In this document: positions 18,035 through 39,260 of the stretch, in pieces
Layout: each line of letters begins with the position of its first letter
Numbering within the stretch: the stretch's first letter is position 1
Assembly (NCBI GenBank): GCA_000002445.1
Contig: CP000071.1
Coordinates: 1,248,001 to 1,312,000 of the forward strand
From: Trypanosoma brucei
Lineage: Eukaryota
Direction: 5' to 3'
Length of the DNA: 64,000 nucleotides
Notes under the pieces: generated by a model
What the model was told of the DNA's origin: nothing
The model's input: the letters and a program-made list of their open reading frames with translations, nothing else
The model's database searches: none
Translations under genes and position numbers: made by a program

Positions 18035-20854
18035 CTAAGCGGTAAAGGAAGGAGTAACAGTTTGTGAAGGAGTCGACAGGGAAAGGACTGCAGCCTCATA
18101 AAGAGAGAGAAGCACCATAAACTGATCCACTCTCAAGCGCTTCGTAGGTTCTAGTTCTAGAAGACCAGCTATCAGTCTCTGCATATGCAGCAGTTCTTGT
18201 GAATGTCTCGGCAGCGTGGGCATTACAGCTGCCCGTTCAGCAGCCTTTACGTAACAGTTTTGTGTGTGGTCCACATCAGACCGGCACTTTGGGTTTTGGC
18301 ATGGAGGATACAACCGCCGAGAGTACATCAGTTCGTATAATGTCGCCCCAAGGCTGTAACAATCGGTGGCGCGGCTACACATTTTGTGTTTGAGCGCGCG
18401 AAGGTCCATATAATCGTAGGTGCCAATAGCCCCCTTTACTCTATCACTATTTTTTGGCCCCACTATGCGACAATTACCAAAGTCACTCAGATAAAAAATA
18501 TATGGGCCGGGAACTGAATCACTCTGTGACCATAGTGCTGCCGGCTCCGTGGCCGGTCGACCTGAGGAGCCCAGTTGCGTCCCCGTCCCTAATGTACATT
18601 GCGTTTGTTCATATTGCTGTTGGGAATACTCTTGGGAGCACATACTTTTGCGTCTGTAAAGGATATTACTTGGCTTAACATCAAGATGCAAGATCCCAAA
18701 TTCGTGCATTGCTTGCAGTACCGTACCAACGCAAAAGCCAACGTCCCTGACGGCATCTGTGTTATGAGGAAAGTTTTCCAGGTCCCCATCGCACAAATCT
18801 GTTACAAGAAATATGGTTGCATCACACCGCATCGTATCCTCCGTGGTTATGGTCAAAAACCGCGGTAATCTCACACTTTCACCTTGTTTACCCCCATCCA
18901 AACTCCCGTTCACGTCACTGTTTGACCATTTCTCTCCGTATTCATCTTCCCTTCCATCAGGTAGTATTCGTTGCGCCTGACACAACTGTTCCCCCTGTGG
19001 GACAAGTGATCCTTGCCATTTCACGGAGATTGCGACATCGGGAGGAAGACACTCTTGGCCCTGCACAAAGAAGGCACTATGGAGTGGAAGAACGTATGGG
19101 ACTCCGTGCTTTCCCAAAAAGCGCATGACGACGACTTCGCGCAAAGTAGAAAGTGCATCGCTAACGCTGCCTCGACTCTGCAAACTTAAAGGACACGACT
19201 TCACAGCGACAACATCTCCTCTCAACGTACGGCAACGCCATACGAACCCAAAACTACCCTCGCCAACATATTCAACATCCTTGAACGCACCCCAGAACAC
19301 TCCTTCTTCAAGACAGTATTTTTTTGAAATGACGTGTTCCACTGCCTCATAAAACGATTCACGAGTAAAGGTTGTGTGAAATAACGGACGCAACTCTTCT
19401 ACAAGACGAGTATCTCTCAAAGTGCTGAATTCGTGATCCACCGGCGTACTTTCACTCACTGCTTCCGCACTACTGACCTTCATTGTGCTCGACATAACGG
19501 AGAAGCTATTCAAATCAACGGGTTTACACCGTTCAGTAGGAAAAAGGAGATCCAATATACTACCCGTTGGTGAAAATGTTTCTTTCCATTGGGGACATGT
19601 TGATGGTTTTGGCTCCGGCGTGTGGTTTTCAGGGGAAGGCAAATCCTCGGCGAGGCAATCGCGCGGACCTCCTCCATTCGCCGTGGCGGTGACGAGTTGG
19701 GCTGCCCCTGTCGCTGGTGTCTCTGCTCTGCTGCTACTATCACTATCACTGTCATCAACAAGGATGTATTCTCTGCCACCACTACTGGCACATGAGCAAT
19801 AGCTTTGGCACGTCGCAAAAAGATGATCATCAGAAAATGCAATGGACGATTGTTGCGTGGAAGGTAGAGGCGGTAGTGGTGACGCCGTATTTGCTGCAGC
19901 TCCTCGAAGGGTGACTTTTGTGGTGTGGTCTTCATCAGACGATGCATAGCTATCATCACAAATAGTGTAGTTGCTTGTAGATGAACTTCCTCCGCGCGGA
20001 CCCGTTCCATGGGCACGTAGAGGTTCTTTGCGCTCGCGAGGCGTTTGGTCAAGCACCCCTGAAGCGGCATACCGACACTGGTTTTCTCGAAGCTGTTCAC
20101 CGCGGGTGAATGATGGTGCATTATGCTCTCCCCTGGCAGTAGACCAAGTGCCGTGCGATTCCTCTGACCTCCCCGGAAAATATGACGTCGTACATAGCGC
20201 ATCCTCAGCATCGTCGACGTCTTCGAAGGAAATACAATGCCCTTTCGAGGGCTTGGTGAGTCTTGTGGTTGTTATATGCCGGACAGGGGCAGCTAAATGG
20301 CGGTCGACTGTGGTGGAAGTGGCACTACCCACACCCTTCACCCAGCCCATTTTGCCATATGCAGGACTAATCCCAGTGTTGGCGACTAAAGCGTTACTGC
20401 AACCAAAACTACCGCTACTCCCCTCTTCCTCACGTGCTGAGAGGCGCTCTGCCACATACGCGATGGGGCGGGGTGAAGTATTAGAGTTTTGAGCGGTACC
20501 CCTGCAATCTCTGAACCGGTGATGTGAGGTCATCATAGCACCCCAGCCGTCCACACATGACCCCATGCGATGAGGCATGAACCTCGATACTGAAGGAGTT
20601 CCGGCCCCAATTACTGATGGTCGCACATTATGGGAGGATACAACACCGCTTCCACCTGCTGCAGCTCCTACTGATATTGCTATTTCTGGATTTGACAGAA
20701 GTGACTCCCTACCCGACACCTCATTCGGTACGGCTTCATTGTCGTCACTGCAACTGATACTCCAGCTGCGTTCACGATTCCGTTTGGTTTGACGTAATCC
20801 CATCGAGGAGTTCGCTGTTGAGGTACCCCCCTGTGGTCGTCTGATTTCACTCAT
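18035..20854 (-). CDS. Ser/Thr protein kinase (non-RD type) with long Ser-rich N-terminal region and large kinase-domain inserts
   Basis: The C-terminal half has a Gly loop GEGSFGFVWRC, VAVK, the catalytic loop HLDVKPSNILY (HLD rather than HRD), DFG in YLSDFGNCRIV and subdomain IX DCYSLGATLYELM. There are 60-70-aa insertions before the hinge and between the catalytic loop and DFG. The N-terminal roughly 500 aa are S/T/G-rich and disordered. Confidence 0.85.
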   Translation of the reverse strand: MSEIRRPQGGTSTANSSMGLRQTKRNRERSWSISCSDDNEAVPNEVSGRESLLSNPEIAISVGAAAGGSGVVSSHNVRPSVIGAGTPSVSRFMPHRMGSCVDGWGAMMTSHHRFRDCRGTAQNSNTSPRPIAYVAERLSAREEEGSSGSFGCSNALVANTGISPAYGKMGWVKGVGSATSTTVDRHLAAPVRHITTTRLTKPSKGHCISFEDVDDAEDALCTTSYFPGRSEESHGTWSTARGEHNAPSFTRGEQLRENQCRYAASGVLDQTPRERKEPLRAHGTGPRGGSSSTSNYTICDDSYASSDEDHTTKVTLRGAAANTASPLPPLPSTQQSSIAFSDDHLFATCQSYCSCASSGGREYILVDDSDSDSSSRAETPATGAAQLVTATANGGGPRDCLAEDLPSPENHTPEPKPSTCPQWKETFSPTGSILDLLFPTERCKPVDLNSFSVMSSTMKVSSAEAVSESTPVDHEFSTLRDTRLVEELRPLFHTTFTRESFYEAVEHVISKKYCLEEGVFWGAFKDVEYVGEGSFGFVWRCRTLRGDVVAVKSCPLSLQSRGSVSDALSTLREVVVMRFLGKHGVPYVLPLHSAFFVQGQECLPPDVAISVKWQGSLVPQGEQLCQAQRILPDGREDEYGEKWSNSDVNGSLDGGKQGESVRLPRFLTITTEDTMRCDATIFLVTDLCDGDLENFPHNTDAVRDVGFCVGTVLQAMHEFGILHLDVKPSNILYRRKSMCSQEYSQQQYEQTQCTLGTGTQLGSSGRPATEPAALWSQSDSVPGPYIFYLSDFGNCRIVGPKNSDRVKGAIGTYDYMDLRALKHKMCSRATDCYSLGATLYELMYSRRLYPPCQNPKCRSDVDHTQNCYVKAAERAAVMPTLPRHSQELLHMQRLIAGLLELEPTKRLRVDQFMVLLSLYEAAVLSLSTPSQTVTPSFTA

Positions 20855-21509: not shown

Positions 21510-23435
21510 TTACGTGGAGGATCCCCAAGCAGCATCATATGTCTCGAGTAGCCACTCCAGCTCCATGCAGCTCAAATCCGCACACACGGCACCACTAAGT
21601 TTCTGCAATTGACTTTCCACGTGTAATAAATGATGGCAGCCACCGCAGGAGCAGCAGCTACAAGCCTCAAGTTGGCGCTCAGTCTCGTCGTTCGGTGCGC
21701 CATGGCGTTGCTTTACGTAATACAACAATTCAAGAGGCAACGTAAAAGCATGGGGAACGGTGAGTCGTTGAAGAGCCCACAAGGCTCTAACTGAAAGTGC
21801 CGCATCATCACAATCTTCTCCCATAGTCGAGTGATGGAGAAGGAGTTGCAATTCCTCTGTTAGCGAAGTCTCAAATACCCCGCGGTCGTCGGTGTTAAAG
21901 GAGATATTAGCCATAGTCGTCTTATACCCTTCTTCATTGTCGGAGGTTTCCTTCCAGAATATCAAACGACGCTTCACCCGGCACCTCATGGCTTCAGCGA
22001 GCTGCACACTGTCCAATAAAATATCGATAAGTCGTGGCGTATTTTCCCTTACGTCCTCAACATTACGCCCCCACTCTTGTTGCTGGGCGGACATTATTTG
22101 TGTCAAATGATGTTTCTCCACGGAAGAATACCCACCAGTGAGAAGATTACTTGACAGGCACAATTCGATAGGATCATACCGCGCTGTTATAGTCTTGAGG
22201 TTCGCAGGATCTGTGAACACGAGGTGGCCCCAGCGATCGGGGGCAAACCCAACTATTTCGGTGAGTTCTGCCGTATCCGGCTTCTCACCGGCGTGAATCG
22301 TAATCCCAAGCGGCGAACGGTTGGTAACAACCCCGCCATTCCCGTCCCGACCCCGTCGAACTTCGCTCAGTGCGGGAACGAATTCAGTAAAAGAGTTTTT
22401 GCCGCAATAACCGGAGAAATCCATTCCAGTCACCCAACATGTTCGTCTAATCACATCCCACAACCGCGACTCCACGTCTGATATGGCTGAACCGTCCACT
22501 ACGCCGGAAGTGCGGCATTCCGCGCACATTTGCCGTTCGCTTTCGAAGAAGTTTTCCAGCTGCTCGTGTTGCAGTTTCTTGGCAAGAAGCGCTACCTCCA
22601 TCGCCACTTCACCACCATGGCTTCGGTTTAGAGACACGAGAAGTCGAACATGCATTCTGTGCTGGAGATGATAGCGGAGTTTGCCCCACCACTTCAATCC
22701 CATATCCTCACTGGAAGTGCCTCCATCAAAAAATGACGGGTATAACCGCTGGAACTCGGCCCACCACTCAGTGGTTGGTGATTCACTTATAGGAAGGAGG
22801 TTTCCAGTGTCAAATGCCACCAACCCGCCATTTAAAATGTGCTGAACGGTAGAAGTAACCGCCTCCAGATATGCTTCTTTACTGACGCACTCCGAGTTTA
22901 CGGAAGCCACTGAGGCGGCAGCAGTTTTATAAAGCTTCTCCCGCAGCGATGTCCGTATCTCAAGAAGAACAATATTTTCTGCTGCAGAGTGCAGAAGCAA
23001 ATCCTGCACAGCCATCCGCGTGAATGCGAGGTTGTTTACCACCTTATATATATTATCAAACACAGTAAAGCAGTACTTCATTCGTTCGCTCGGTGAATCC
23101 AGTTGTTTGAGTCCTCCTTCTCCGCTCTTAAAATTTCGCGGATGTAGCTCTGCATCAACATCCTCTGAAGAAGTTGCATCTTCCTCGCGTTTTCCCTGCG
23201 CCGCACGTTGTAATTCTTCCATGTGAGAAAGCAGTGGAGTGCTGATACTCCCGTTGAGGTGGCAATGCAAGTCAACTTTTGGAATGGCAGAAGCATCAAT
23301 TTCATCACAACTACCAACCCTCTGCGCCCAAGCACGTGCAAAGTCATATAACCGCCCCTCCATTCCGATTTCGGTGCGTCCCAAGAAATTGGCCTCTCTG
23401 TTGAGCCGTTTATTCCAAATGGTGTGAACTAACAC
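21510..23435 (-). CDS. Adenosine/AMP deaminase-family metallohydrolase (ADA-like) with C-terminal Cys/His-rich extension
   Basis: ADA signature motifs are present: KVDLHCHLNGSIS (the H-x-H metal ligands), ITIHAGE (the HAGE motif) and SFNTDDRGVF (compare SLNTDDP). At 641 aa it is much longer than canonical ADA (about 360 aa), with inserts and a C-terminal CSCCSCGGCHHLLH cluster. Confidence 0.8.
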   Translation of the reverse strand: MLVHTIWNKRLNREANFLGRTEIGMEGRLYDFARAWAQRVGSCDEIDASAIPKVDLHCHLNGSISTPLLSHMEELQRAAQGKREEDATSSEDVDAELHPRNFKSGEGGLKQLDSPSERMKYCFTVFDNIYKVVNNLAFTRMAVQDLLLHSAAENIVLLEIRTSLREKLYKTAAASVASVNSECVSKEAYLEAVTSTVQHILNGGLVAFDTGNLLPISESPTTEWWAEFQRLYPSFFDGGTSSEDMGLKWWGKLRYHLQHRMHVRLLVSLNRSHGGEVAMEVALLAKKLQHEQLENFFESERQMCAECRTSGVVDGSAISDVESRLWDVIRRTCWVTGMDFSGYCGKNSFTEFVPALSEVRRGRDGNGGVVTNRSPLGITIHAGEKPDTAELTEIVGFAPDRWGHLVFTDPANLKTITARYDPIELCLSSNLLTGGYSSVEKHHLTQIMSAQQQEWGRNVEDVRENTPRLIDILLDSVQLAEAMRCRVKRRLIFWKETSDNEEGYKTTMANISFNTDDRGVFETSLTEELQLLLHHSTMGEDCDDAALSVRALWALQRLTVPHAFTLPLELLYYVKQRHGAPNDETERQLEACSCCSCGGCHHLLHVESQLQKLSGAVCADLSCMELEWLLETYDAAWGSST

Positions 23436-25503: not shown

Positions 25504-26079
25504 TCATTCCTTTCTGTGCCGGTTCTTTGGGTTTGCGTACTCTTCTATTGATAACCAACCATTTGCTTCTGCTTCAGCAAATGCCTCCGGGAATGCAGCC
25601 TTTTCCCAACGGAGGTAATTCACTACTTGGCGTTGCAGTTGCCGTGGATTTAATTGATAGGGATTTAACTTTCTGTCCAATGACATGGCCTTGAAATCTG
25701 TTTGGTGCTTGCGTATGAGGTTTGCCATCGTGACGGCCTCTTCTTCGCTGATACGCCTGACCTGTAGTGTTCCTTTACGTTGCTGTCGCAGTTCCTCCAA
25801 TTCATTTTCCTCTTCGAGCCGCCGTGTGGGTTGCGACGGTTCATCCACTATTTTTTTTGGTGTAATGCTCGGATCTTTTGCGAGTCCGAGACTCTTAAAG
25901 TTGCTGGAGGCGGTACTGAAGCGCTTAAAATACTTTTTGGTGAAGTAATTGTTAGATCCGGCCTTATCAATTTGGTGAAGATGGGCGAAGCGGCGCTTGA
26001 GATATTTCTTTCGTCCACTGCGCGTGATCGGAATATTTTTCTTCGCCTTCCCCTTAGGTGTCACCCTAATTCGCCCCAT
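25504..26079 (-). CDS. NOP16: Nucleolar ribosome-biogenesis protein NOP16
   Basis: The 191-aa basic protein has the C-terminal HQTDFKAMSLDRKLNPYQLNPRQLQRQVVNYLRWEKAAFPEAF, which matches the NOP16 family (human EDYKAMARDEKNYYQDTPKQIRSKINVYKRFYPAEWQ). It has a Lys/Arg-rich N-terminus. Confidence 0.65.
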   Translation of the reverse strand: MGRIRVTPKGKAKKNIPITRSGRKKYLKRRFAHLHQIDKAGSNNYFTKKYFKRFSTASSNFKSLGLAKDPSITPKKIVDEPSQPTRRLEEENELEELRQQRKGTLQVRRISEEEAVTMANLIRKHQTDFKAMSLDRKLNPYQLNPRQLQRQVVNYLRWEKAAFPEAFAEAEANGWLSIEEYANPKNRHRKE

Positions 26080-26089
26080 GCTTCCTTCC

Positions 26090-26135
26090 TTCCCCGAATA
26101 ATAATAATAATTATTATTATAATTACTACAACAAC
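26090..26135. repeat. (AAT/ATT)n low-complexity tract, representative of the 2.4-kb AT- and trinucleotide-rich spacer 26080-28523
   Basis: taataataataattattattataattactacaacaacg. Similar (CAA)n, (ATA)n and (CAT)n runs occur at 26625-26652, 26856-26880, 28253-28275 and 28396-28430. Confidence 0.8.
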
Positions 26136-28523
26136 GATTGCTGATGTCTCTGCGTTTGTCACTTTTCTTTTTGTTTTGCCGTGTGAGTTTAACTCACTTG
26201 CACCCTTCTCCCGTGTAGCAGATTAGCCGCTATTCCTTTCCCCCTTTTAATTATGCACAATAGCACATGCATAATGGGGACGAAGTGAAGTAAAAGATTA
26301 AGAAAAGAAAAAAAATTTAAAGGGAGGAGTTAAAAAAAAAAGATGTGAAATAAATGCAATGTGTGTAGTTTGTTATACACCATAACTTATTCAAAGCTAC
26401 CGCCATGCGGTTTCCCGCCATCATTTGACGGGCTTTTTTTTTTTGAGCCGCCGATTATTCGATGTTAGTTAAACATTCTTTTTTTTAAAAAAAAATCTGT
26501 GTTCAAACGCACATTCAACATCCCTGCACTCTGTGTTTTCTCCCGCTTTCTCATAACAACCACTAGTGGACCCACTGAAGAAAAACAAAATAAAAATAAG
26601 AAAAAGGAAAAGGAAACGAACAACAACAACAATAATAATAATAATACATAATTTCCCCCCTTAAAAGTAGTGTGTCGCCAACACTAATAATTGAGGTAAC
26701 CGTATCTATCACATAGATAATGTTACTGCAATATGAGAAGGCGAAAAAAAGAAAAGAAAGAAAGAAAGAAAAAAGTGTCGAGAACAGCAATTCAATGCAA
26801 TGCAAAGTAGTCGATCGTGTAGCACGCGGCAGCTGAGTGACGAAAGACAAGGTGTAATAATAATAATAATAATAATAATGACAAATGAAATATTTCATAA
26901 AATGAAAAAGAAAAGAAAACAACAACAACAAAAACAAAAAGGATCACTGAAGAGACGAGCAGGCGCTTTCACATGCTTTCACAATTGCATGAAAATATTA
27001 ATACAAAAACAAAACAAACAAATAAATATATACTGAAGACTTCTTTCAGTATACGTGATCACATGACATAAACCAATTAACAACGAGTACCTCAAAACAA
27101 GAAAAAGAAAAAAAAAAGAAAAACGAAAGCTGTAAAAGTGTGCAGCCAAGTAAAGAATTTATTCTATACTTTTCTTCTCTTTTTGGAAAATGTATAAGAG
27201 GAAGGAAAAGGGAGTCGGGGAGAGGGGAAGTGAATTAAAAGAAGTGACAACGAAACAAACAAAAAAAAAACAGCAACACAGTATACCCACTGTGAAGGTG
27301 AAATATGTTACAAAACAATAATAATGACAACAACAGGCTGCGAGTGAGTTCCCCTCCATCATCCTTTAAAAAAAAATGAATAATTTCATGCAGCAGAATT
27401 CAACCCAAAAACATATTTGTTTTCTTTTTATTTTGGATTTCCCCCTCCAGTTTCTTTCATATTTCCATGTTCCCCTTGTTGGTAAAACTCTGCACATGTT
27501 CATTATTTTGTTTTGTGTCATTGGTCGGAAAAAAAAACGCAAATAAGTCAAATAATCCCCTATCTCCTGAAAAAAAAAAGAAAACAGAACTTCAAGATGA
27601 GAAATAAAAGAAACGGTGGGGTAAAACGGAATGGAAGCCACTAAAACCCTCCCCCCTTTTTTATCATCGCAGCCAATAGAGCAAACAGACAAAAGAAAAC
27701 ATGGAAGGAAACGAGACATAAAAAAAAAACAAAAAAAAAAAATAGCTTCAATATTCATTTGCGCATGCAAACAATACAGGCGCCGCAAGTCTTTCTTCAC
27801 GTGGTCTCTTCTTCCCTTCCTTTTTTTTTGCAATATAAATTCTCTTCCCCTCTTCCTCCTATCAATGTACCCAAAGCAAACAAACACACAAATAAACAAA
27901 CACGTATATGGCATCAATAATATATATATATATATATGTATATTCATTTACACTGACACATATTTATATATGTGGATACAGATATATGCATGTATATATA
28001 AATATGTATATGTATATTCATGTGCTTGCGTGTAGTTTTTTTTAAATAAAAAACATATTTATACCCCTTCATCTTTTAATATATATATATATATTTGATC
28101 TGACCCTTCAGTTCTTTCAGGTCATTTTACTCAGTTAAACAATGTAAAAGATGAGCATCTCAACACCTAATGCCTTCCCTTTACTTTTCCCCCTTCACTT
28201 TAACTTTTTGCGTCTCACAAAGAACATACATTAGCATTAGGGGACAGCGGTACAACAACAACAACAACAATAATTAAAAAAACCCGCTGCCAATATGGTC
28301 AACTAACTAACCAACTAACCTTAAGAAAAAAAAAGAGAGCAAGCGCATGCCGAGAAAAAGTAGAGTGAACGAAGAAGAGAAATCCCAACAAATAATAATA
28401 CATGTATAACAATCATCATCATCATCATCATCTCGCGCATGAAACTAAGAAGAAAGGAGAACTCGAAACCTGTGGTCGTTGGAGGTTGCAGTAGCCACTA
28501 ATGATCGCGCAAACACAAGAAAG

Positions 28524-31759: not shown

Positions 31760-34700
31760 TCACGAGTCTTCTCTGTACGTACAATATACGCTGTCTAACT
31801 CCTCATCACTATCATCAGTGTCCCTCATAATATTTTTGACTACCAACAACGCGGCGGCGCCAGGAAGCGATGTCCTGCTAAAGCACCAGCTAATAACATC
31901 GCGGGATTTTTCCTCTAGCACCTCAATTCGCCGCCGATCATGTTCACATTGCAACATCGTCGCCCGCCACTCATCGACCCATAGTTCCACGGCCACCTCT
32001 TCCATTTCCTCTCGTTTACGCGCCTCCCGTTGCACCAAATAGGAACGAAGTCGGTAATCACGTCGTGCAAGAAATCCGCGCATGACAGCCTGAATGCGCG
32101 TGACACACGAAAGAACTAAAGCACGAAGAGCACGCTCACGCTCTTCCGCCTCCTTCTTGCGGCGCCGTGCTATCCAGCGACGAACCCCACGCTGAATAAC
32201 GGTTGCGCATTTATCGAGGAATAACTGCCGCCGCACGACCCTGCGGACAATCAACTTATCCGTTAACCGACGGCAGCGTCGTTCCTCGGCTATTTGGCAG
32301 CTTCGTCGTGCACGGAGAAATGCGCCAATGTGGGCCACAATTTTCAATTTTTGTTCGTGACGAAGCCACTGGTACAACTCCATGGCTTGACGGCGGAGTC
32401 GCAGTGCATAACCCAGTTGCATGCGCACAGTCCCGGCGCGACTCGCACTTTGAATCCTCATCGCTGCATAGAAGAAACCACGACCGATAGCCGCACGGCG
32501 GTGCCGTGCGGTTCGTTTTGCTATTGCCATGCGAGCAAATGATTGAAGTTTTATGGTTGCTCGGTATATGCGGTATTCTTCGTCCAGGCGGTCCCTACTG
32601 GTAACTTGCTGCACCCTGCGGAGATACCGTACAGTTCCATCAGCAAGGAAGCGACGGACCACGCGCTGGATCAACAGCACTGCACGCACTGTTCGACGGC
32701 AGTGGTTGAGTGCATTGTGCACAACCTGCAGCCGTAAGGCATTCTTCCATCCTTGCTGTATGACTGCGGCAGCCTCTTCACGTTTGACCTCACGATGTGC
32801 AGCTTCCAGCGCAAGACGCTCACGGCGGCGTTTGTACTCCTGCAAGCACAACCGCACAAGATCGATACTTTCGTTAAGTTTTCGCTGCCGTTGCTCGTAC
32901 TCTTCTGCCAACCGCTCCCTAAGGAGACGCACTTTTCGTCGGTCCAGATGGCCTTTATAGTGTCGCTGAATGACAGTTGCCGCGCTGTTTTGTTTTCGAA
33001 GCAACTCCTCTTCTCTCTGCTCTTCCTTAATTTCACGCTCCCGCCGCCGCCAGTATTGCCTGCGTGGATAAACAAGTCGCCACCAACGCGCCACGATCGT
33101 CTGCGCCACAACGCGCAGCCGTAACTCTTCCATGTTGTTGAGTCTAAGCAGTTTACAAAGGTACCGCTGAACTCTTCGCCGAGCAACGTAATCCTTTCCA
33201 TAGCGCGCAATAACAAGTGCTGCCTTGATTTCACGATTTTCTCGTTCAATTCGCTCATCCATAGCCGTAGCGTACCTTTGCTGCGTCAAACGCAGATGTT
33301 TTTGCGCGACAACAGAGTGAATAAAGCCTTCAATACACATTGCTGCGGCCTTTTGCACCCGGTAAACACGCTTGTAGAGAATCTGCTGCCGTTCACGCAG
33401 TGCAACACGCGCCTGATAAACACGCCAGGCGCATTGTATTTTGATGGCTGAGAGCATACGCCACTGGAAAAGTTGCCGGAAGTAGTTAACGAGTTCGATC
33501 TCGCAGCGTTCTTTTTTCTCTTCTACTGTTTCCTCCTCACTTTCTTCACTCTCCTCAGTTTCCTCACTTTCTTCGGTTTCCTCCGTTTCTTCTTCATCCG
33601 ATTCATCTGATTCATCTTCCTCATCCGATTCCTCTTCCTCATCCGATTCCTCATCTTTTTTATCCTCACAAACTAACCCATGCGCCGACCCCTCACGTTC
33701 ACTAGCTGCTGCTTCACCTGAATTGGGCCTCTGAGTGCTATCAGAAGATTGGGCCTTGTCGATTCTGGGTCGGCGTTTGGGTTTCTTCGCAAGCGCACTT
33801 TTCAGGTTGAACGCTCCCGAACTTTCTTGCAGGTCAGCGTCAGAGTCTCCTTTGTCCATTCCCAGTGCGGAATCATGTAAGGGGGAACCGACTGATGAAC
33901 TTCCACCATCCGCTGCTCGCTTGTGGCTTCGTTTCTTCACTTTGCGCTTTAGTGCCTGGGAATCGCTCAGAGGGGCTTGGGAGGCGCGTAAAGATCCGCC
34001 CTCCTCGGAGGTGGTGGGTTCCTCCTTATCATGCCCCTTTGCTGATCGCTTCTTTTTCTTCTTTTTCTTCATGTCGTCACCAATAAGACCCAGTCGGGCA
34101 AGCAGCGCGTCACCGCTAGAGAAATCGTTGAAGAGACTCTTGGTAAGATCCTCACTCTCAACGCGCTTCCTGACTTTCTTCTTCTTCTCTGTTTTCCGTT
34201 TAGCTTTTTTCACTCGCGCCAGCAGTTGGTCCCCGGCACCAAGGTTGTCGGCGGCAGAATTTTCTGTAACTATGGCTATTTCCCCGGTACCACTCGACGT
34301 CTTTTTCCTTGCTCGGACACGGTTTAATAGGTTTGTTAAGGTTCCATCACCACTAAGCTCATCGGTAACAGTACCATCATCGTCATCATCATCGCCATCT
34401 GATTTTGTATCTTTATCATCGCCCTTCGCTTTCTTATGCTTTTTTTTGTCATCTTTCCTGCTTTTCATACGATCAATACAGGCTAATAGTGCTTCCCCAC
34501 CAACGAAACCATCGCCGTCCGCCTGCAACATGCCTTCATCGATCTCCAAGGTCGATTCATTTCTTTCCTCTTTTGATTTCCTTGACTTTTTCTTCGACTC
34601 GCTTCCACCTTGCGCTGCACCTGGTTTCCCTGGCCCGACAAATGCAGGCAGAAAACTTCGTTGGCGACGGAGCCTCCTTCTTCGCCGCTGTATTTCTAAC

Positions 34701-36160
34701 ATTTTTTCCCTCTCCCGCTCTTCCTCGCGCCTTTTCTCCGCAAAAAGCGTATCCTCCACACTCACACCGCCGAGCCGCAGCGCATCACTCGGCCGTCGTA
34801 ACCTGTGACAGGTGAAGAGGTGTTTTGTATTTACATGTTCCCCACTTACCACAACCTCAACGGTCCGTTTTCGCGTTCCACCAAGAGGCATAGAAGGGTC
34901 CCACTTTATGGCAGCCTGGTACCAATTATCGTTTAGTTGAGAATCCGAATCACCTACAACTACTGGGAAACTCGGAAGGCGGTCTTGCAGCGAGGGAAGT
35001 GCAATTTTCGTGCTGACAGTTGCGAACGAGCTCATCCCTGCGGTCGTTACTGTGCGTGGGGTAGAGGCGTTGCGCGATGGTGCAGTGACCCTACCTTGGC
35101 TAATCTGTGGCAGACTCAATATGCTTTGATTCGATCCAACTGTTTCGCCAAGGATGTTAGCCTCAAGTCGTGACGGTCGGTTCGATCTTCTTCCATCCTC
35201 ATGCGGCTCTACCATGGGTTCCGCCTGATTTGGGGCATCTTGGATGCCCTCAAGTTTCAAACGAAGCGGATGGTTGGGTTCCAAGTACTGCTTACCAAGT
35301 TCTAAGGCCCTCGAAAAGCTGGTTTGCATTTCTCGTTCTATAGCCAACTGTTTATTACTATCAACTTCCAATGAAGAAATATGCTCAAGTTCACAGCCAA
35401 CATTGTACAGCGCGACCGGAAGGAGCTCACAAGCCTCCTTCATACAATTGACACCGAATCCCCCTGCCGATGGGTTGCTTACCGCAGTTTCCAACATCCG
35501 AACAGCGGCGCGGTGACGCCTGATCGCTCGGTCACACTGACCCGCGTTATGTAAGAGGACGGCAATCTGTATGGAACTCATCGCCTGTCGAAGAAGGTTC
35601 ACCTTCTCCTCAACGGCGACCAACTGCTGCACCGTCTTCGGGTCAGCGGCATCTCCTTGACTTGTCACCACGGCCCGCTGCTTCCTCACAACGGCGGCTA
35701 CATGTTGTTCTAGTTTGCATGCCTCTTTGGCCTGCTTCACAGCCTCCAGCATATCCCCTTGCGACGCATGACCTTGGTTGTTATGGGCAAACAATTCCCG
35801 CAACATAACATGCGTATCGCGAACAACTAACAAAATTTGCGCCGCTATAAGGGGAGGAATGTGCTCCTGTATGCTGATACTGGGTATGGAGGCGTCGCTT
35901 CCGTGATCATCCCTGTTACTAAGAGGAGCACCTTCCCGCTGCAGCCATATGCCGTCTGGAATACAGGCACGACGAACCTCATGCCCGATCTCAGCAGCTT
36001 TATCTAATGCCTGTATGGCTTTGGTCCGCACACCCATGGCGGCCTTCCAGTCAGGTCCGTCAACTACGCCGGGTGGAATATTACTGGAAGCGAGGAGGAA
36101 CTCCTCAATATTTTGTTTTGCCTCAATTTGCAACCGCTGGAGTTCATCAAGTCGTTCCAT
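31760..36160 (-). CDS. Large IQ-motif (calmodulin-binding) protein with TPR-like N-terminus, Lys-rich repeat region and acidic tract
   Basis: The 1466-aa ORF has at least 9 IQ-like motifs in its C-terminal third: IQCAWRVYQAR, VIQRHYKGHLDRRK, VIQQGWKNALR, LIQRVVRRFLA, IKLQSFARMAIAKR, RIQSASRAG, VIQRGVRRWIARRR and RIQAVMRGFLARR. Upstream lies an acidic TEETEESEETEESEESEEE tract. Four degenerate repeats G[DE]xLLAR...K-rich occupy aa 550-706. N-terminal helical repeats are TPR-like. Confidence 0.7.
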   Translation of the reverse strand: MERLDELQRLQIEAKQNIEEFLLASSNIPPGVVDGPDWKAAMGVRTKAIQALDKAAEIGHEVRRACIPDGIWLQREGAPLSNRDDHGSDASIPSISIQEHIPPLIAAQILLVVRDTHVMLRELFAHNNQGHASQGDMLEAVKQAKEACKLEQHVAAVVRKQRAVVTSQGDAADPKTVQQLVAVEEKVNLLRQAMSSIQIAVLLHNAGQCDRAIRRHRAAVRMLETAVSNPSAGGFGVNCMKEACELLPVALYNVGCELEHISSLEVDSNKQLAIEREMQTSFSRALELGKQYLEPNHPLRLKLEGIQDAPNQAEPMVEPHEDGRRSNRPSRLEANILGETVGSNQSILSLPQISQGRVTAPSRNASTPRTVTTAGMSSFATVSTKIALPSLQDRLPSFPVVVGDSDSQLNDNWYQAAIKWDPSMPLGGTRKRTVEVVVSGEHVNTKHLFTCHRLRRPSDALRLGGVSVEDTLFAEKRREEEREREKMLEIQRRRRRLRRQRSFLPAFVGPGKPGAAQGGSESKKKSRKSKEERNESTLEIDEGMLQADGDGFVGGEALLACIDRMKSRKDDKKKHKKAKGDDKDTKSDGDDDDDDGTVTDELSGDGTLTNLLNRVRARKKTSSGTGEIAIVTENSAADNLGAGDQLLARVKKAKRKTEKKKKVRKRVESEDLTKSLFNDFSSGDALLARLGLIGDDMKKKKKKKRSAKGHDKEEPTTSEEGGSLRASQAPLSDSQALKRKVKKRSHKRAADGGSSSVGSPLHDSALGMDKGDSDADLQESSGAFNLKSALAKKPKRRPRIDKAQSSDSTQRPNSGEAAASEREGSAHGLVCEDKKDEESDEEEESDEEDESDESDEEETEETEESEETEESEESEEETVEEKKERCEIELVNYFRQLFQWRMLSAIKIQCAWRVYQARVALRERQQILYKRVYRVQKAAAMCIEGFIHSVVAQKHLRLTQQRYATAMDERIERENREIKAALVIARYGKDYVARRRVQRYLCKLLRLNNMEELRLRVVAQTIVARWWRLVYPRRQYWRRREREIKEEQREEELLRKQNSAATVIQRHYKGHLDRRKVRLLRERLAEEYEQRQRKLNESIDLVRLCLQEYKRRRERLALEAAHREVKREEAAAVIQQGWKNALRLQVVHNALNHCRRTVRAVLLIQRVVRRFLADGTVRYLRRVQQVTSRDRLDEEYRIYRATIKLQSFARMAIAKRTARHRRAAIGRGFFYAAMRIQSASRAGTVRMQLGYALRLRRQAMELYQWLRHEQKLKIVAHIGAFLRARRSCQIAEERRCRRLTDKLIVRRVVRRQLFLDKCATVIQRGVRRWIARRRKKEAEERERALRALVLSCVTRIQAVMRGFLARRDYRLRSYLVQREARKREEMEEVAVELWVDEWRATMLQCEHDRRRIEVLEEKSRDVISWCFSRTSLPGAAALLVVKNIMRDTDDSDEELDSVYCTYREDS

Positions 36161-38609: not shown

Positions 38610-39260
38610 TTAACAGCACCCGCCACTCGCCTTACCAGCCGGCTGGTTGGAATTGGAAGGCGAAAGGTTCACTGGCTTTTTGGCTGCCGCGCCTGCATTA
38701 AGAGGCGGCCGCTTGCCCGTTGCAGCGGAATCGACCGGCGCCACAACATGGTCATACACCGATTTCGCAAGCCACTCAAAAGCCTTGTCTACGTTTGTTT
38801 TCTCCAACGCGGAGGTTTCGAGGAAAGACAAACCGTTTTCACGGGCAAAGCGGTCAGCCACTTCCTTTTTGATCACACGCAGGTGCTCAAGATCGCATTT
38901 GTTGCCAATGAGAAAGATAGAGCACGTGGCGGGTACGAAGGCGCGGAGCTCCTGAAGCCACGTGGAAATGGAATCAAATGATGTTTGGTTGGTGATGTCA
39001 TAGACGAGCATCGCCCCCTTCGCTCCGTGGTAAATCGAACGGGAGATGGCGCGGAAACGTTCCTGCCCAGCGGTATCCCAAATCTGCACTTTGGCGTCCC
39101 GCCCTTCAATTTTGATGCTTTTTGTCATAAACTCCACGCCGATAGTCGCCGGCGTGTCTTGACTGAACTCATCGGCTGTGTAGCGAGTCATGAGGTTGGA
39201 CTTCCCAACACCGCTGTCACCCACGATAACAACTTTGAACGTAAGGTTCATGTCTTCCAT
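38610..39260 (-). CDS. RAB11: Rab11-family small GTPase
   Basis: G1 GDSGVGKSNLMTRYTADEF (Rab11: GDSGVGKSNLLSRFTRNEF), the switch I/effector TIGVEF, WDTAGQERFRAI, GNKCDL, NGLSFLETSAL (Rab11: NGLSFIETSAL), ETSALE and a C-terminal GGCC prenylation motif. At 216 aa it has the Rab11-like N-terminal extension before the P-loop. Confidence 0.85.
   Translation of the reverse strand: MEDMNLTFKVVIVGDSGVGKSNLMTRYTADEFSQDTPATIGVEFMTKSIKIEGRDAKVQIWDTAGQERFRAISRSIYHGAKGAMLVYDITNQTSFDSISTWLQELRAFVPATCSIFLIGNKCDLEHLRVIKKEVADRFARENGLSFLETSALEKTNVDKAFEWLAKSVYDHVVAPVDSAATGKRPPLNAGAAAKKPVNLSPSNSNQPAGKASGGCC

What the first reader, a model, noticed from the sequence alone, without database searches (positions are those of the whole stretch)
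34043..34504. Four lysine-rich G[DE]xLLAR... repeats (WH2-like?) upstream of an acidic tract and an array of at least 9 IQ motifs in a 1466-aa protein
Within the 31760-36160 gene, aa 553-706 contain four degenerate repeats: GEALLACIDRMKSRKDDKKKHKK, GTLTNLLNRVRARKK, GDQLLARVKKAKRKTEKKKK and GDALLARLGLIGDDMKKKKKKK. The layout LLxx[IVL]....[LM]KKK loosely resembles WH2 actin-monomer-binding motifs (consensus LLxxIxxGxxLKK[VT]). These are followed by a TEE/SEE acidic tract and then a long array of IQ motifs, which bind calmodulin or myosin light chains, at about nt 31960-33520. A TPR-like N-terminus combined with WH2-like repeats and IQ repeats would be a novel cytoskeletal or flagellar scaffold architecture. 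The alternative is that the K-rich repeats are simply nuclear localisation signals.
Basis: inference. Interest (0 to 1): 0.5.

Follow-up and report, generated by a model that had tools for sequence, protein, structure and literature searches.

The report
Basic LL motifs, trypanosome IQ scaffold
Four short leucine-plus-lysine motifs sit in the disordered middle of an uncharacterised Trypanosoma brucei-group protein (very probably Tb927.8.4320) that joins a TPR domain to a long calmodulin-binding IQ helix; the motifs are real and partly conserved, but nothing supports reading them as actin-binding WH2 domains.

Summary
The 1466-aa ORF (31760-36160, minus strand) is real, and the four G[DE]xLL...K-rich motifs are exactly where stated. 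They are far commoner than the linker's composition predicts.

The window is Trypanosoma brucei-group chromosome 8, and by gene order the gene is Tb927.8.4320.

The architecture has four parts:
- a disordered linker that is basic and then strongly acidic;
- a roughly 545-aa, almost continuous helix carrying eight conserved [IL]Q cores;
- an acidic tail.

Pfam detects six of the eight IQ cores, and four pass the cut-off on their own.

The WH2 reading fails. There is no Pfam WH2 hit, a home-made WH2 profile scores 2.5 bits or less, no copy has an LKK[TV] box, and the T. cruzi copy of the ancestral motif has no lysine run.

Each LL motif starts a low-confidence predicted helix. Motif 4 is 20/21 identical to T. 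congolense within a poorly conserved linker.

Tb927.8.4320 appears in a flagellar-skeleton APEX2 proximity proteome.

Best reading: lineage-amplified short helical docking motifs with polybasic tails, which tether a calmodulin-loaded rod to acidic cytoskeletal surfaces. Nuclear-localisation signals are not excluded. Interest is modest.

The parts
31760..36160 (-). Whole ORF of 1466 aa. By gene order it is Tb927.8.4320 ('hypothetical protein, conserved').
   Evidence: ORF listed. Identical protein on a Trypanozoon contig. Orthologues in T. congolense, T. vivax, T. cruzi, T. melophagium, T. conorhini and T. grayi, plus two distant kinetoplastid assemblies. Gene order: Tb927.8.4300 primers at 27331-27406, then two ORFs, then Rab11 = Tb927.8.4330.
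35228..36160 (-). aa 1-311: all-alpha TPR-fold domain.
34646..34810 (-). aa 451-505: invariant motif CHRLRRPSDALRLGG, then a charged helix ending in RRQRSFLP.
   Evidence: Invariant columns H452 R453 L454 P457 D459 A460 L461 L463 G465 R495 R499 R501 F503 P505. Helix 469-501 has pLDDT up to 90.
34430..34498 (-). Repeat 1, aa 555-577: GEALLACIDRMKSRKDDKKKHKK.
   Evidence: Predicted helix 556-578 with pLDDT about 50-60. Possible T. vivax counterpart EEVDILLGNPLLKKKKD.
34301..34345 (-). Repeat 2, aa 606-620: GTLTNLLNRVRARKK.
   Evidence: Predicted helix 607-618 with pLDDT 41-49. Aligned to T. congolense DALSSLLSRAKARTKK and T. vivax DGVLSRLLRKSRN.
34175..34234 (-). Repeat 3, aa 643-662: GDQLLARVKKAKRKTEKKKK. 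It includes a bipartite-NLS-like pattern, KKAKRKTEKKKKVRKR.
   Evidence: Predicted helix 644-665 with pLDDT about 42. The LL is lost in T. congolense (SGDALTSQSDRRKSGRR).
34046..34135 (-). Repeat 4 (extended), aa 676-705: LFNDFSSGDALLARLGLIGDDMKKKKKKKR. This is the best-conserved copy and probably the ancestral one.
   Evidence: The block is 20/21 identical in T. congolense. T. cruzi has FSGDPLLQSVL with no K-run. Weaker matches in T. melophagium (DGGALTASV) and a distant kinetoplastid (SGALAERL). Short predicted helices 669-680 and 684-689.
33761..33964 (-). aa 733-800: further polybasic clusters without LL (ALKRKVKKRSHKR and AKKPKRRPRI).
33515..33655 (-). aa 836-882: acidic S/T-D/E tract with net charge -33.
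   Evidence: Encoded by 9/18/27-nt tandem repeats at 33534-33652. An acidic tract is present at the same place in all orthologues.
31880..33514 (-). aa 883-1427: near-continuous basic alpha-helical rod (net charge +72 over aa 883-1400). It carries eight conserved [IL]Q cores at aa 908, 1064, 1134, 1164, 1205, 1236, 1322 and 1356.
   Evidence: AF2 helices 879-1004, 1010-1027, 1035-1172, 1175-1224 and 1227-1427, with pTM 0.21. Pfam IQ results. Invariant Q/R columns. 58-68% identity to T. vivax and T. congolense.
31763..31879 (-). aa 1428-1466: disordered acidic C-terminal tail ending ...YCTYREDS.
   Evidence: pLDDT below 50. The ending Y.DD is conserved in orthologues.

Best explanation
The four motifs are short linear motifs inside an intrinsically disordered, charge-blocked linker of a kinetoplastid-specific TPR-linker-IQ-rod protein. 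Each has a Gly-Asp/Glu helix cap, a short weakly amphipathic helix that forms on binding (LLxR[VL]), and a polybasic tail.

Most likely they act as multivalent docking and electrostatic tethers. The hydrophobic LL face would give specificity for a protein partner. The lysine runs would bind an acidic surface, most plausibly glutamate-rich tubulin tails or other flagellar-skeleton components. Together they would position a long helix loaded with calmodulin or calmodulin-like light chains. The adjacent acidic tract is placed to compete with, and so regulate, those basic elements.

What is shown: the motifs exist and are non-random, they are partly conserved, the region is disordered with local helix propensity, the IQ rod and the TPR fold are predicted, and the gene product appears in a flagellar-skeleton proximity proteome.

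What is inferred: the binding targets, the tethering role and the regulatory role of the acidic tract.

The motifs are not WH2 domains.
For: - Non-random recurrence of the motif.
- No DNA repeat, so the similarity is kept at peptide level.
- The linker is disordered (pLDDT 25-45), with a low-confidence helix starting at each LL motif (556-578, 607-618, 644-665, 684-689).
- Repeat 4 is 20/21 identical between the window and T. congolense, although the linker did not align at all in BLASTP against T. vivax. Repeat 2 is conserved in T. congolense and T. vivax. An R4-like FSGDPLLQSVL is present in T. cruzi.
- Polybasic clusters followed by an acidic tract are a constant feature of the linker in all orthologues.
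- Charge blocks: +11 over aa 553-706, -33 over 836-882, +72 over 883-1400.
- IQ motifs pass Pfam and have invariant Q/R positions, and they sit on a predicted extended helix.
- Tb927.8.4320 is in the DRC1-APEX2 pellet proximity proteome. Of such newly found proteins with TrypTag data, 72% localise to flagellar structures.
Against: - No direct localisation or binding data for this protein were retrievable; the stored TrypTag tables are truncated.
- The APEX2 list also contains nucleoporins and an RNA polymerase subunit, so membership is only suggestive.
- The gene-ID assignment rests on gene order, not on a sequence match to Tb927.8.4320 itself.
- Helix predictions have low confidence, and hydrophobic moments are modest (0.22-0.46 over the first 11 residues).
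- Copy number and sequence vary between species, and repeat 3 lost its LL in T. congolense. Some copies may therefore be dispensable.
- The K-runs match classical NLS patterns equally well.
Confidence: 0.45

Rival explanations
1. The lysine-rich runs are classical importin-alpha nuclear or nucleolar localisation signals. The LL residues are incidental or only help present the signal.
For: There are twelve K[KR]x[KR] matches, one bipartite pattern (KKAKRKTEKKKKVRKR), and runs such as KKKKKKKR, LKRKVKKRSHKR and KKPKRRPR in the linker. Comparable basic clusters occur in every orthologue. A 160-kDa protein would need active import to enter the nucleus.
Against: The gene was not found in the stored nuclear-proteome supplements, although those files may be truncated. 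It is present in a detergent-insoluble flagellar proximity proteome. An NLS does not explain why the non-basic part of repeat 4 (LFNDFSSGDALLARLGLIGDD) is the most conserved piece, nor why T. cruzi keeps that part without a K-run.
Confidence: 0.25
2. The LL helices are ligands for a TPR groove. The groove could be the protein's own N-terminal domain, giving autoinhibition as in LGN TPR-GoLoco or the KLC LFP-acidic motif. It could instead belong to a partner. The K-runs would provide electrostatic steering.
Against: No PAE or contact information was available, and the repeats have pLDDT of only 40-60, so there is no confident docking. Pfam GoLoco gives no hit. The parallel is architectural only.
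Confidence: 0.12
3. The motifs are additional, non-IQ calmodulin or centrin-binding basic amphipathic helices (Ca2+-dependent sites) that complement the apo-calmodulin IQ sites.
For: They have net positive charge, helical propensity and hydrophobic anchors at 1-5-8-like spacing in R1 and R2. The protein is otherwise built to bind calmodulin.
Against: There are no bulky aromatic anchors. No complete 1-10, 1-14 or 1-5-8-14 pattern is present by inspection of the sequences. Hydrophobic moment is low over the full predicted helices (0.07-0.39).
Confidence: 0.08
4. The motifs are WH2-like G-actin-binding motifs.
For: There is a superficial match of G-[DE]-A-L-L-x-x-[ILV] to the GRxALLxxI start of WASP-type WH2 domains, and R4 has M-KKK 11 residues after LL.
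Against: - Pfam WH2 gives no hit at E<=10 for the protein, the region or any single repeat.
- A home-made WH2 HMM scores 2.5, 1.2, -1.3 and -7.1 bits and aligns only the G.ALL piece. Divergent true WH2s score 7.5-9.4, and 9-13% of shuffled linkers score as well.
- No PDB WH2 chain matches.
- No L-K-K-[TV] box is present. The lysine runs are generic, and the K-run is absent from the T. cruzi copy.
- In the review read here, trypanosomatids have only about ten core actin-binding proteins, thymosin-beta4 is absent, and no multi-WH2 nucleator is listed among those core proteins (PMC7581878).
Confidence: 0.03
5. The motifs are neutral low-complexity by-products of a fast-evolving charged linker and have no specific function.
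For: The linker is the least conserved part of the protein. Copy number differs between species, and one copy decayed in T. congolense.
Against: Repeat 4 is near-identical across the T. brucei / T. congolense split within a divergent linker. Motif recurrence is strongly non-random.
Confidence: 0.07

Closest known systems
Tb927.10.970 (T. brucei; Marques et al. 2022, PMC9464253)
   Same: [quoted passage not shown] It is in the same DRC1-APEX2 proximity list.
   Different: It is a different gene, on chromosome 10. None of its four published primers occurs in the window. An exhaustive search with aa 1-720 found only one orthologue per species and no paralogue family. Its paraflagellar-rod localisation and endoreduplication phenotype cannot be transferred to this gene.
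Plant IQD (IQ67-domain) proteins (from general knowledge, not tested here)
   Same: They are basic, largely disordered scaffolds that carry IQ motifs. They recruit calmodulin to microtubules, and often also to the nucleus, and they work with TPR proteins (KLCR).
   Different: There is no sequence relationship. In IQDs the TPR is in a separate partner protein and the IQ67 domain is compact. Here the TPR is in cis and the IQ motifs are spread over about 545 aa of helix.
LGN/GPSM2-Pins
   Different: The LGN motifs are GoLoco motifs that bind G-alpha-i. Pfam GoLoco gives no hit here. From general knowledge, trypanosomatids lack heterotrimeric G proteins. LGN has no IQ rod.
WH2 domain (WASP, N-WASP, WAVE, WIP, thymosin-beta4)
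   Same: Both have a short N-terminal helix beginning G-x-x-A-L-L, followed by basic residues.
   Different: There is no profile similarity and no LKK[TV] box. The spacing is wrong, and conservation does not preserve the link between the helix and the K-run.
ASPM and myosin-neck IQ arrays
   Same: They carry multiple IQ motifs on a long helix that binds calmodulin or light chains.
   Different: By my recollection, their spacing is a regular 23-27 aa. Here it is irregular, 26-70 aa, with Arg/Glu-rich spacers. There is no motor or calponin-homology domain and no PDB sequence match.

Membership tests
WH2 domain (Pfam PF02205) | Significant match to the WH2 profile | tested here: not met
   No PF02205 hit at E<=10 for the whole protein, for aa 541-720 or for each repeat alone. 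The home-made profile scores 2.5 bits or less, no better than shuffles.
WH2 domain (Pfam PF02205) | LKK[TV]-type box about 6-8 residues after the amphipathic helix | tested here: not met
   No L-[KR]-[KR]-[TV] occurs in register. Only generic K-runs are present (M-KKKKKKK in R4). The T. cruzi copy of R4 lacks any K-run.
WH2 domain (Pfam PF02205) | N-terminal amphipathic helix (LLxxI) | tested here: inconclusive
   LL..[ILV] is present in all four copies. Helices are predicted but with pLDDT of 40-60. Hydrophobic moment is 0.22-0.46.
WH2 domain (Pfam PF02205) | Binding to G-actin | not testable with these tools
IQ calmodulin-binding motif (Pfam PF00612) | Score above the gathering threshold (20.3 bits) | tested here: met
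   Whole protein 53 bits and C-terminal part 66.4 bits with 6 stretches. Single motifs: 908 = 23.3, 1064 = 28.1, 1322 = 20.7 and 1356 = 30.5 bits; 1164 = 16.4 and 1205 = 14.7 are below the threshold.
IQ calmodulin-binding motif (Pfam PF00612) | Conserved [IL]Q...R core on an exposed alpha-helix | tested here: met
   Q and downstream R are invariant or nearly invariant at eight cores across 10 kinetoplastid sequences. The region is predicted as near-continuous helix without a compact fold (pTM 0.21).
IQ calmodulin-binding motif (Pfam PF00612) | Actual binding of calmodulin or a light chain | not testable with these tools
   No binding data were found.
Tetratricopeptide repeat (TPR) domain | Pfam TPR profile above threshold | tested here: not met
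   TPR_12 scores 22.4 bits (E 1.4e-4) for aa 1-311 against a cut-off of 30.1. On the whole protein the E-value is 3.2.
Tetratricopeptide repeat (TPR) domain | Helix-turn-helix solenoid fold superposable on solved TPR domains | tested here: met
Classical (importin-alpha) NLS | K-K/R-x-K/R or bipartite basic pattern | tested here: met
   There are twelve monopartite and one bipartite pattern matches in aa 500-880. A pattern match alone has low specificity.
Classical (importin-alpha) NLS | Nuclear localisation that depends on the motif | not testable with these tools
   The stored TrypTag data are truncated. The gene is not in the stored nuclear-proteome files but is in a flagellar proximity proteome.
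GoLoco motif (Pfam PF02188) | Profile match | tested here: not met
   No hit at E<=10.

The most novel reading that the evidence does not exclude
The G[DE]xLLxR[LV] helices, with LFNDFSSGDALLARLGLIGDD as the prototype, may be a previously undescribed kinetoplastid short linear motif. On this reading it docks into a TPR groove, either the protein's own LGN/KLC-like domain or a partner's. That would make Tb927.8.4320 an autoinhibited, Ca2+/calmodulin- and phosphorylation-switched tether of the flagellar skeleton. The lysine runs would engage tubulin tails once the acidic tract releases them.
Probability: 0.1. Interest if true: 0.55.

Novelty: new member of a known kind. Interest (0 to 1): 0.3.

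Why it matters
If the motifs were WH2 domains, this would be the first multi-WH2 protein in a lineage with a minimal actin toolkit, but the evidence is against that.

What remains is an uncharacterised, kinetoplastid-restricted protein that could hold six to eight calmodulin-type light chains on an approximately 80-nm helix. It is linked through a regulated, charge-patterned linker to a TPR domain, and it was detected near the axoneme.

Calcium and calmodulin control of trypanosome flagellar function is poorly understood. The only described protein with the same layout, Tb927.10.970, is essential for normal cell division. The gene is therefore a reasonable candidate for follow-up, but it does not break any paradigm.

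Tried and rejected
1. Identity with Tb927.10.970. This was rejected because all four published primers are absent from the window even with 5 mismatches allowed.

2. WH2. Rejected on Pfam, a custom HMM and PDB sequence searches.

3. GoLoco or another Pfam domain in the repeat region. Only noise hits appeared: TOBE, FAM32A and RPN7_C at E>0.1.

4. Recent tandem duplication of the repeats. No DNA repeat was found.

5. The 357-aa plus-strand ORF at 33735-34808, antisense to the repeats. Its product is an F/S/L-rich mirror image of the K/E/D-rich sense strand, and every other large ORF in the window is on the minus strand. I treat it as an artefact.

6. A repeat HMM built from R1-R4, used to look for more copies or to tie in the invariant SDALRLGG motif. 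It found only T. congolense R4, so the resemblance of aa 457-465 to the repeats stays anecdotal.

7. The third homologue search, using an N-terminal alignment, returned nothing. I suspect the candidate cap was saturated by low-complexity words.

8. The afdb50 fold library was unavailable.

9. Literature and supplement look-ups:
- No main text mentions Tb927.8.4310 or Tb927.8.4320.
- TrypTag, RIT-seq, hyperLOPIT and nuclear-proteome supplements gave nothing, probably because the stored files are truncated.

10. A PDB sequence search with the full protein gave no hit, so the protein is not a modelled chain in solved trypanosomatid axoneme structures.
Full report
**Observation**

The minus-strand ORF 31760-36160 encodes 1466 aa. 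The finding's coordinates (34043-34504) map to aa 553-706, and the four quoted peptides are there verbatim at aa 555-577, 606-620, 643-662 and 683-704.

The four LL dipeptides of the 371-aa central linker all lie in the same context: G, then D/E or a small residue, then LL, then two residues, then I/V/L, then a basic run.
- In 20,000 composition-preserving shuffles of the linker, G[DE].LL was expected 0.04 times and observed 3 times.
- LL..[ILV] was expected 0.19 times and observed 4 times.
- LL followed by three basic residues was expected 0.13 times and observed 4 times.
- G[DE].LL does not occur in 11,084 aa of the other large ORFs of the window.

The patterns were chosen after seeing the data, but the excess is large. 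The copies share no nucleotide repeat, so they are not a recent duplication. The acidic tract (aa 836-882, net charge -33) is encoded by 9/18/27-nt tandem repeats.

**Where the window comes from and which gene this is**

All 15 or so large ORFs are on one strand, as in a kinetoplastid polycistronic unit.

The closest database proteins are from T. congolense (68% identity in the C-terminal part) and T. vivax (58% and 37%). The identical protein is on a contig of assembly GCA_001457755.2, and the neighbouring Rab is identical in GCA_003543875.1. I recall both as T. equiperdum assemblies; that is from memory.

The TrypTag tagging primers for Tb927.8.4300 match the window perfectly at 27331-27406. 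That is the stop codon of a 193-aa ORF at 27366-27947.

The Rab at 38610-39260 is a Rab11/Ypt31 orthologue, and the single T. brucei Rab11 is Tb927.8.4330. Exactly two large ORFs lie between them. The 678-aa ORF should therefore be Tb927.8.4310 and the IQ protein Tb927.8.4320. This is an inference from gene order, and I put it at about 85-90%.

The gene is not Tb927.10.970, the published TPR + IQ protein, because none of that gene's four primers is in the window.

**Anatomy**

AlphaFold2 on aa 1-720 with a 10-sequence alignment gives:
- a confident all-alpha domain at aa 1-311 (pLDDT mostly 80-95);
- disorder at aa 312-454;
- a confident helix at aa 469-501;
- a low-confidence linker in which helices are predicted only at 556-578, 607-618, 644-665, 669-680 and 684-689. 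Each LL motif therefore starts a predicted helix, at pLDDT 40-60.

AlphaFold2 on aa 877-1466 gives almost continuous helices from 879 to 1427 with pTM 0.21, which indicates an extended rod rather than a globule.

Pfam IQ passes for the protein, at 53-66 bits with 5-6 stretches. Taken one by one:
- the motifs at 908, 1064, 1322 and 1356 pass;
- 1164 and 1205 are sub-threshold;
- 1134, 1236 and four Q-less IQ-like sites give nothing.

Eight [IL]Q cores have invariant or nearly invariant Q and R in the 10-sequence alignment. Their spacing is irregular, 26-70 aa, with Arg/Glu-rich spacers.

Charge is arranged in blocks: +11 over aa 553-706, -33 over aa 836-882 and +72 over aa 883-1400.

**Conservation**

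An exhaustive HMMER scan with aa 1-720 found seven proteins. There is one orthologue per lineage and no paralogue family.

Against T. vivax, BLASTP aligns aa 1-505 (37%) and aa 883-1465 (58%) but not the linker. Within the linker:
- Repeat 4 with its upstream flank (LFNDFSSGD[A/G]LLARLGLIGDD) is 20/21 identical in T. congolense.
- Repeat 2 is recognisable in T. congolense (DALSSLLSRAKARTKK) and T. vivax (DGVLSRLLRKSRN).
- Repeat 3 has lost its LL in T. congolense.
- T. cruzi has a single FSGDPLLQSVL with no lysine run.
- T. melophagium and a distant kinetoplastid have only weak matches.

Polybasic clusters followed by an acidic tract are present in every orthologue. The LL helix and the lysine runs are therefore separable features. 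Repeat 4 looks ancestral. The four-copy K-rich arrangement is specific to salivarian (African) trypanosomes.

**WH2 test**

Pfam WH2 gives nothing at E<=10 for the protein, for the region or for each repeat.

HMMER's filters could hide weak matches, so I built a profile from eight WH2 cores recalled from memory and ran it unfiltered. This is a lead-quality control, not a curated model.
- The repeats scored 2.5, 1.2, -1.3 and -7.1 bits and aligned only over G.ALL.
- Divergent true WH2s, thymosin-beta4 and leiomodin (also recalled from memory), scored 7.5 and 9.4 bits.
- Between 9% and 13% of shuffled linkers scored as well as the real one.

No PDB chain, including the many actin-WH2 complexes, matches the region. 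No copy has an LKK[TV] box.

Trypanosomatids are described as having only about ten core actin-binding proteins and no thymosin family (PMC7581878). That would make a WH2 array remarkable, but nothing here supports one.

**Function**

No paper text mentions Tb927.8.4320. It is listed as 'hypothetical protein, conserved' in Table S1A of Velez-Ramirez et al. 2021 (PMC8141408). That table covers proteins of the DRC1-APEX2 detergent-insoluble proximity proteome that earlier flagellar proteomes did not find.
- Inclusion required detection in all four replicates and enrichment over the control.
- Of such proteins with TrypTag data, 72% localise to flagellar structures.
- The list also holds nucleoporins and polymerase subunits.

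This favours a flagellar-skeleton or cytoskeletal association but does not prove it.

My best reading is that the motifs are binding-induced helices with polybasic tails, acting as multivalent tethers. The LL face would give specific docking and the lysines would engage acidic surfaces such as tubulin tails. Together they would position a calmodulin or light-chain-loaded rod. The acidic tract and the many Ser/Thr residues are well placed to regulate this.

The main rival is that the lysine runs are classical nuclear localisation signals. A more novel possibility is that the LL helices dock into the LGN/KLC-like TPR groove, in cis or in trans. This could not be tested because no contact or PAE output was available.

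**Verdict**

The WH2 interpretation is not supported. The IQ, TPR and cytoskeletal-scaffold parts are largely supported. The layout is not unprecedented in T. brucei (Tb927.10.970; PMC9464253). The protein is an uncharacterised member of the broad class of IQ-motif calmodulin scaffolds, with a lineage-specific linker motif of unknown partner. Interest is modest (0.3).

Noticed in passing
window 34766-34810 (-), aa 451-465, plus 34646-34756 (aa 469-505): CHRLRRPSDALRLGG is the most conserved element outside the IQ rod. H452, R453, L454, P457, D459, A460, L461, L463 and G465 are invariant from T. brucei to distant kinetoplastids. It contains an RRPS basophilic-kinase (PKA/CaMK-type) consensus. 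A confident helix and an invariant R..R.F.P follow it. Its SDALRLGG core loosely resembles the repeats, but a repeat HMM does not pick it up.
   Followed up: partly
orthologues P0003, P0001, P0007 and P0002, just after the RRQRSFLP motif (equivalent to window aa 503-515): T. cruzi, T. vivax, T. melophagium and T. conorhini continue with FLPEDW, FVPENW, FLPESW or FLPEHW plus acidic residues. This resembles the W-acidic and LFP-acidic motifs bound by kinesin-light-chain TPRs. The T. brucei-group protein has FLPAFVGPG instead.
   Followed up: no
window 27366-27947 (-) and 26001-28000: A 193-aa ORF whose stop codon matches the TrypTag primers of Tb927.8.4300 lies in a markedly AT-rich stretch (GC 0.34, against about 0.48 elsewhere).
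   Followed up: partly
window 38610-39260 (-): A 216-aa Rab GTPase ending in GGCC has Ypt31 and Rab11A as its best PDB matches (E about 1e-57 to 1e-59), so it is T. brucei Rab11 (Tb927.8.4330). It lies immediately upstream of the IQ gene in the same transcription unit.
   Followed up: yes
window 33534-33652: Overlapping 9-, 18- and 27-nt tandem repeats encode the S/T-D/E acidic tract. Such a stretch could plausibly vary in length between strains (my inference, not tested).
   Followed up: no
window 33735-34808 (+): A 357-aa antisense ORF (F/S/L-rich) mirrors the K/E/D-rich sense strand. I judge it an artefact of low-complexity coding sequence, not a gene.
   Followed up: partly
P0002 + P0008 (T. 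conorhini Tco025E_07033 and 07034); P0005 (T. congolense, 907 aa); P0009 (T. grayi, 520 aa): Public gene models of the orthologue are split or truncated within or near the low-complexity linker. The family therefore looks smaller and less conserved in databases than it is.
   Followed up: no
whole window, 1-64000: All ORFs of at least 200 aa that look like genes are on the minus strand, forming one polycistronic unit. They include a 939-aa protein kinase (18035-20854) and a 641-aa protein with a partial adenosine-deaminase domain (21510-23435). Several large ORFs have no Pfam domain: 1689, 1368, 1043 and 678 aa.
   Followed up: partly
literature (PMC8141408 Table S2; PMC9464253): Tb927.10.970 has the same TPR + IQ layout. 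Its reciprocal-best human hit is ASPM, it localises to the paraflagellar rod, and its knockdown causes endoreduplication. Whether it is a distant paralogue of the window gene could not be tested, because its sequence was not retrievable here.
   Followed up: partly
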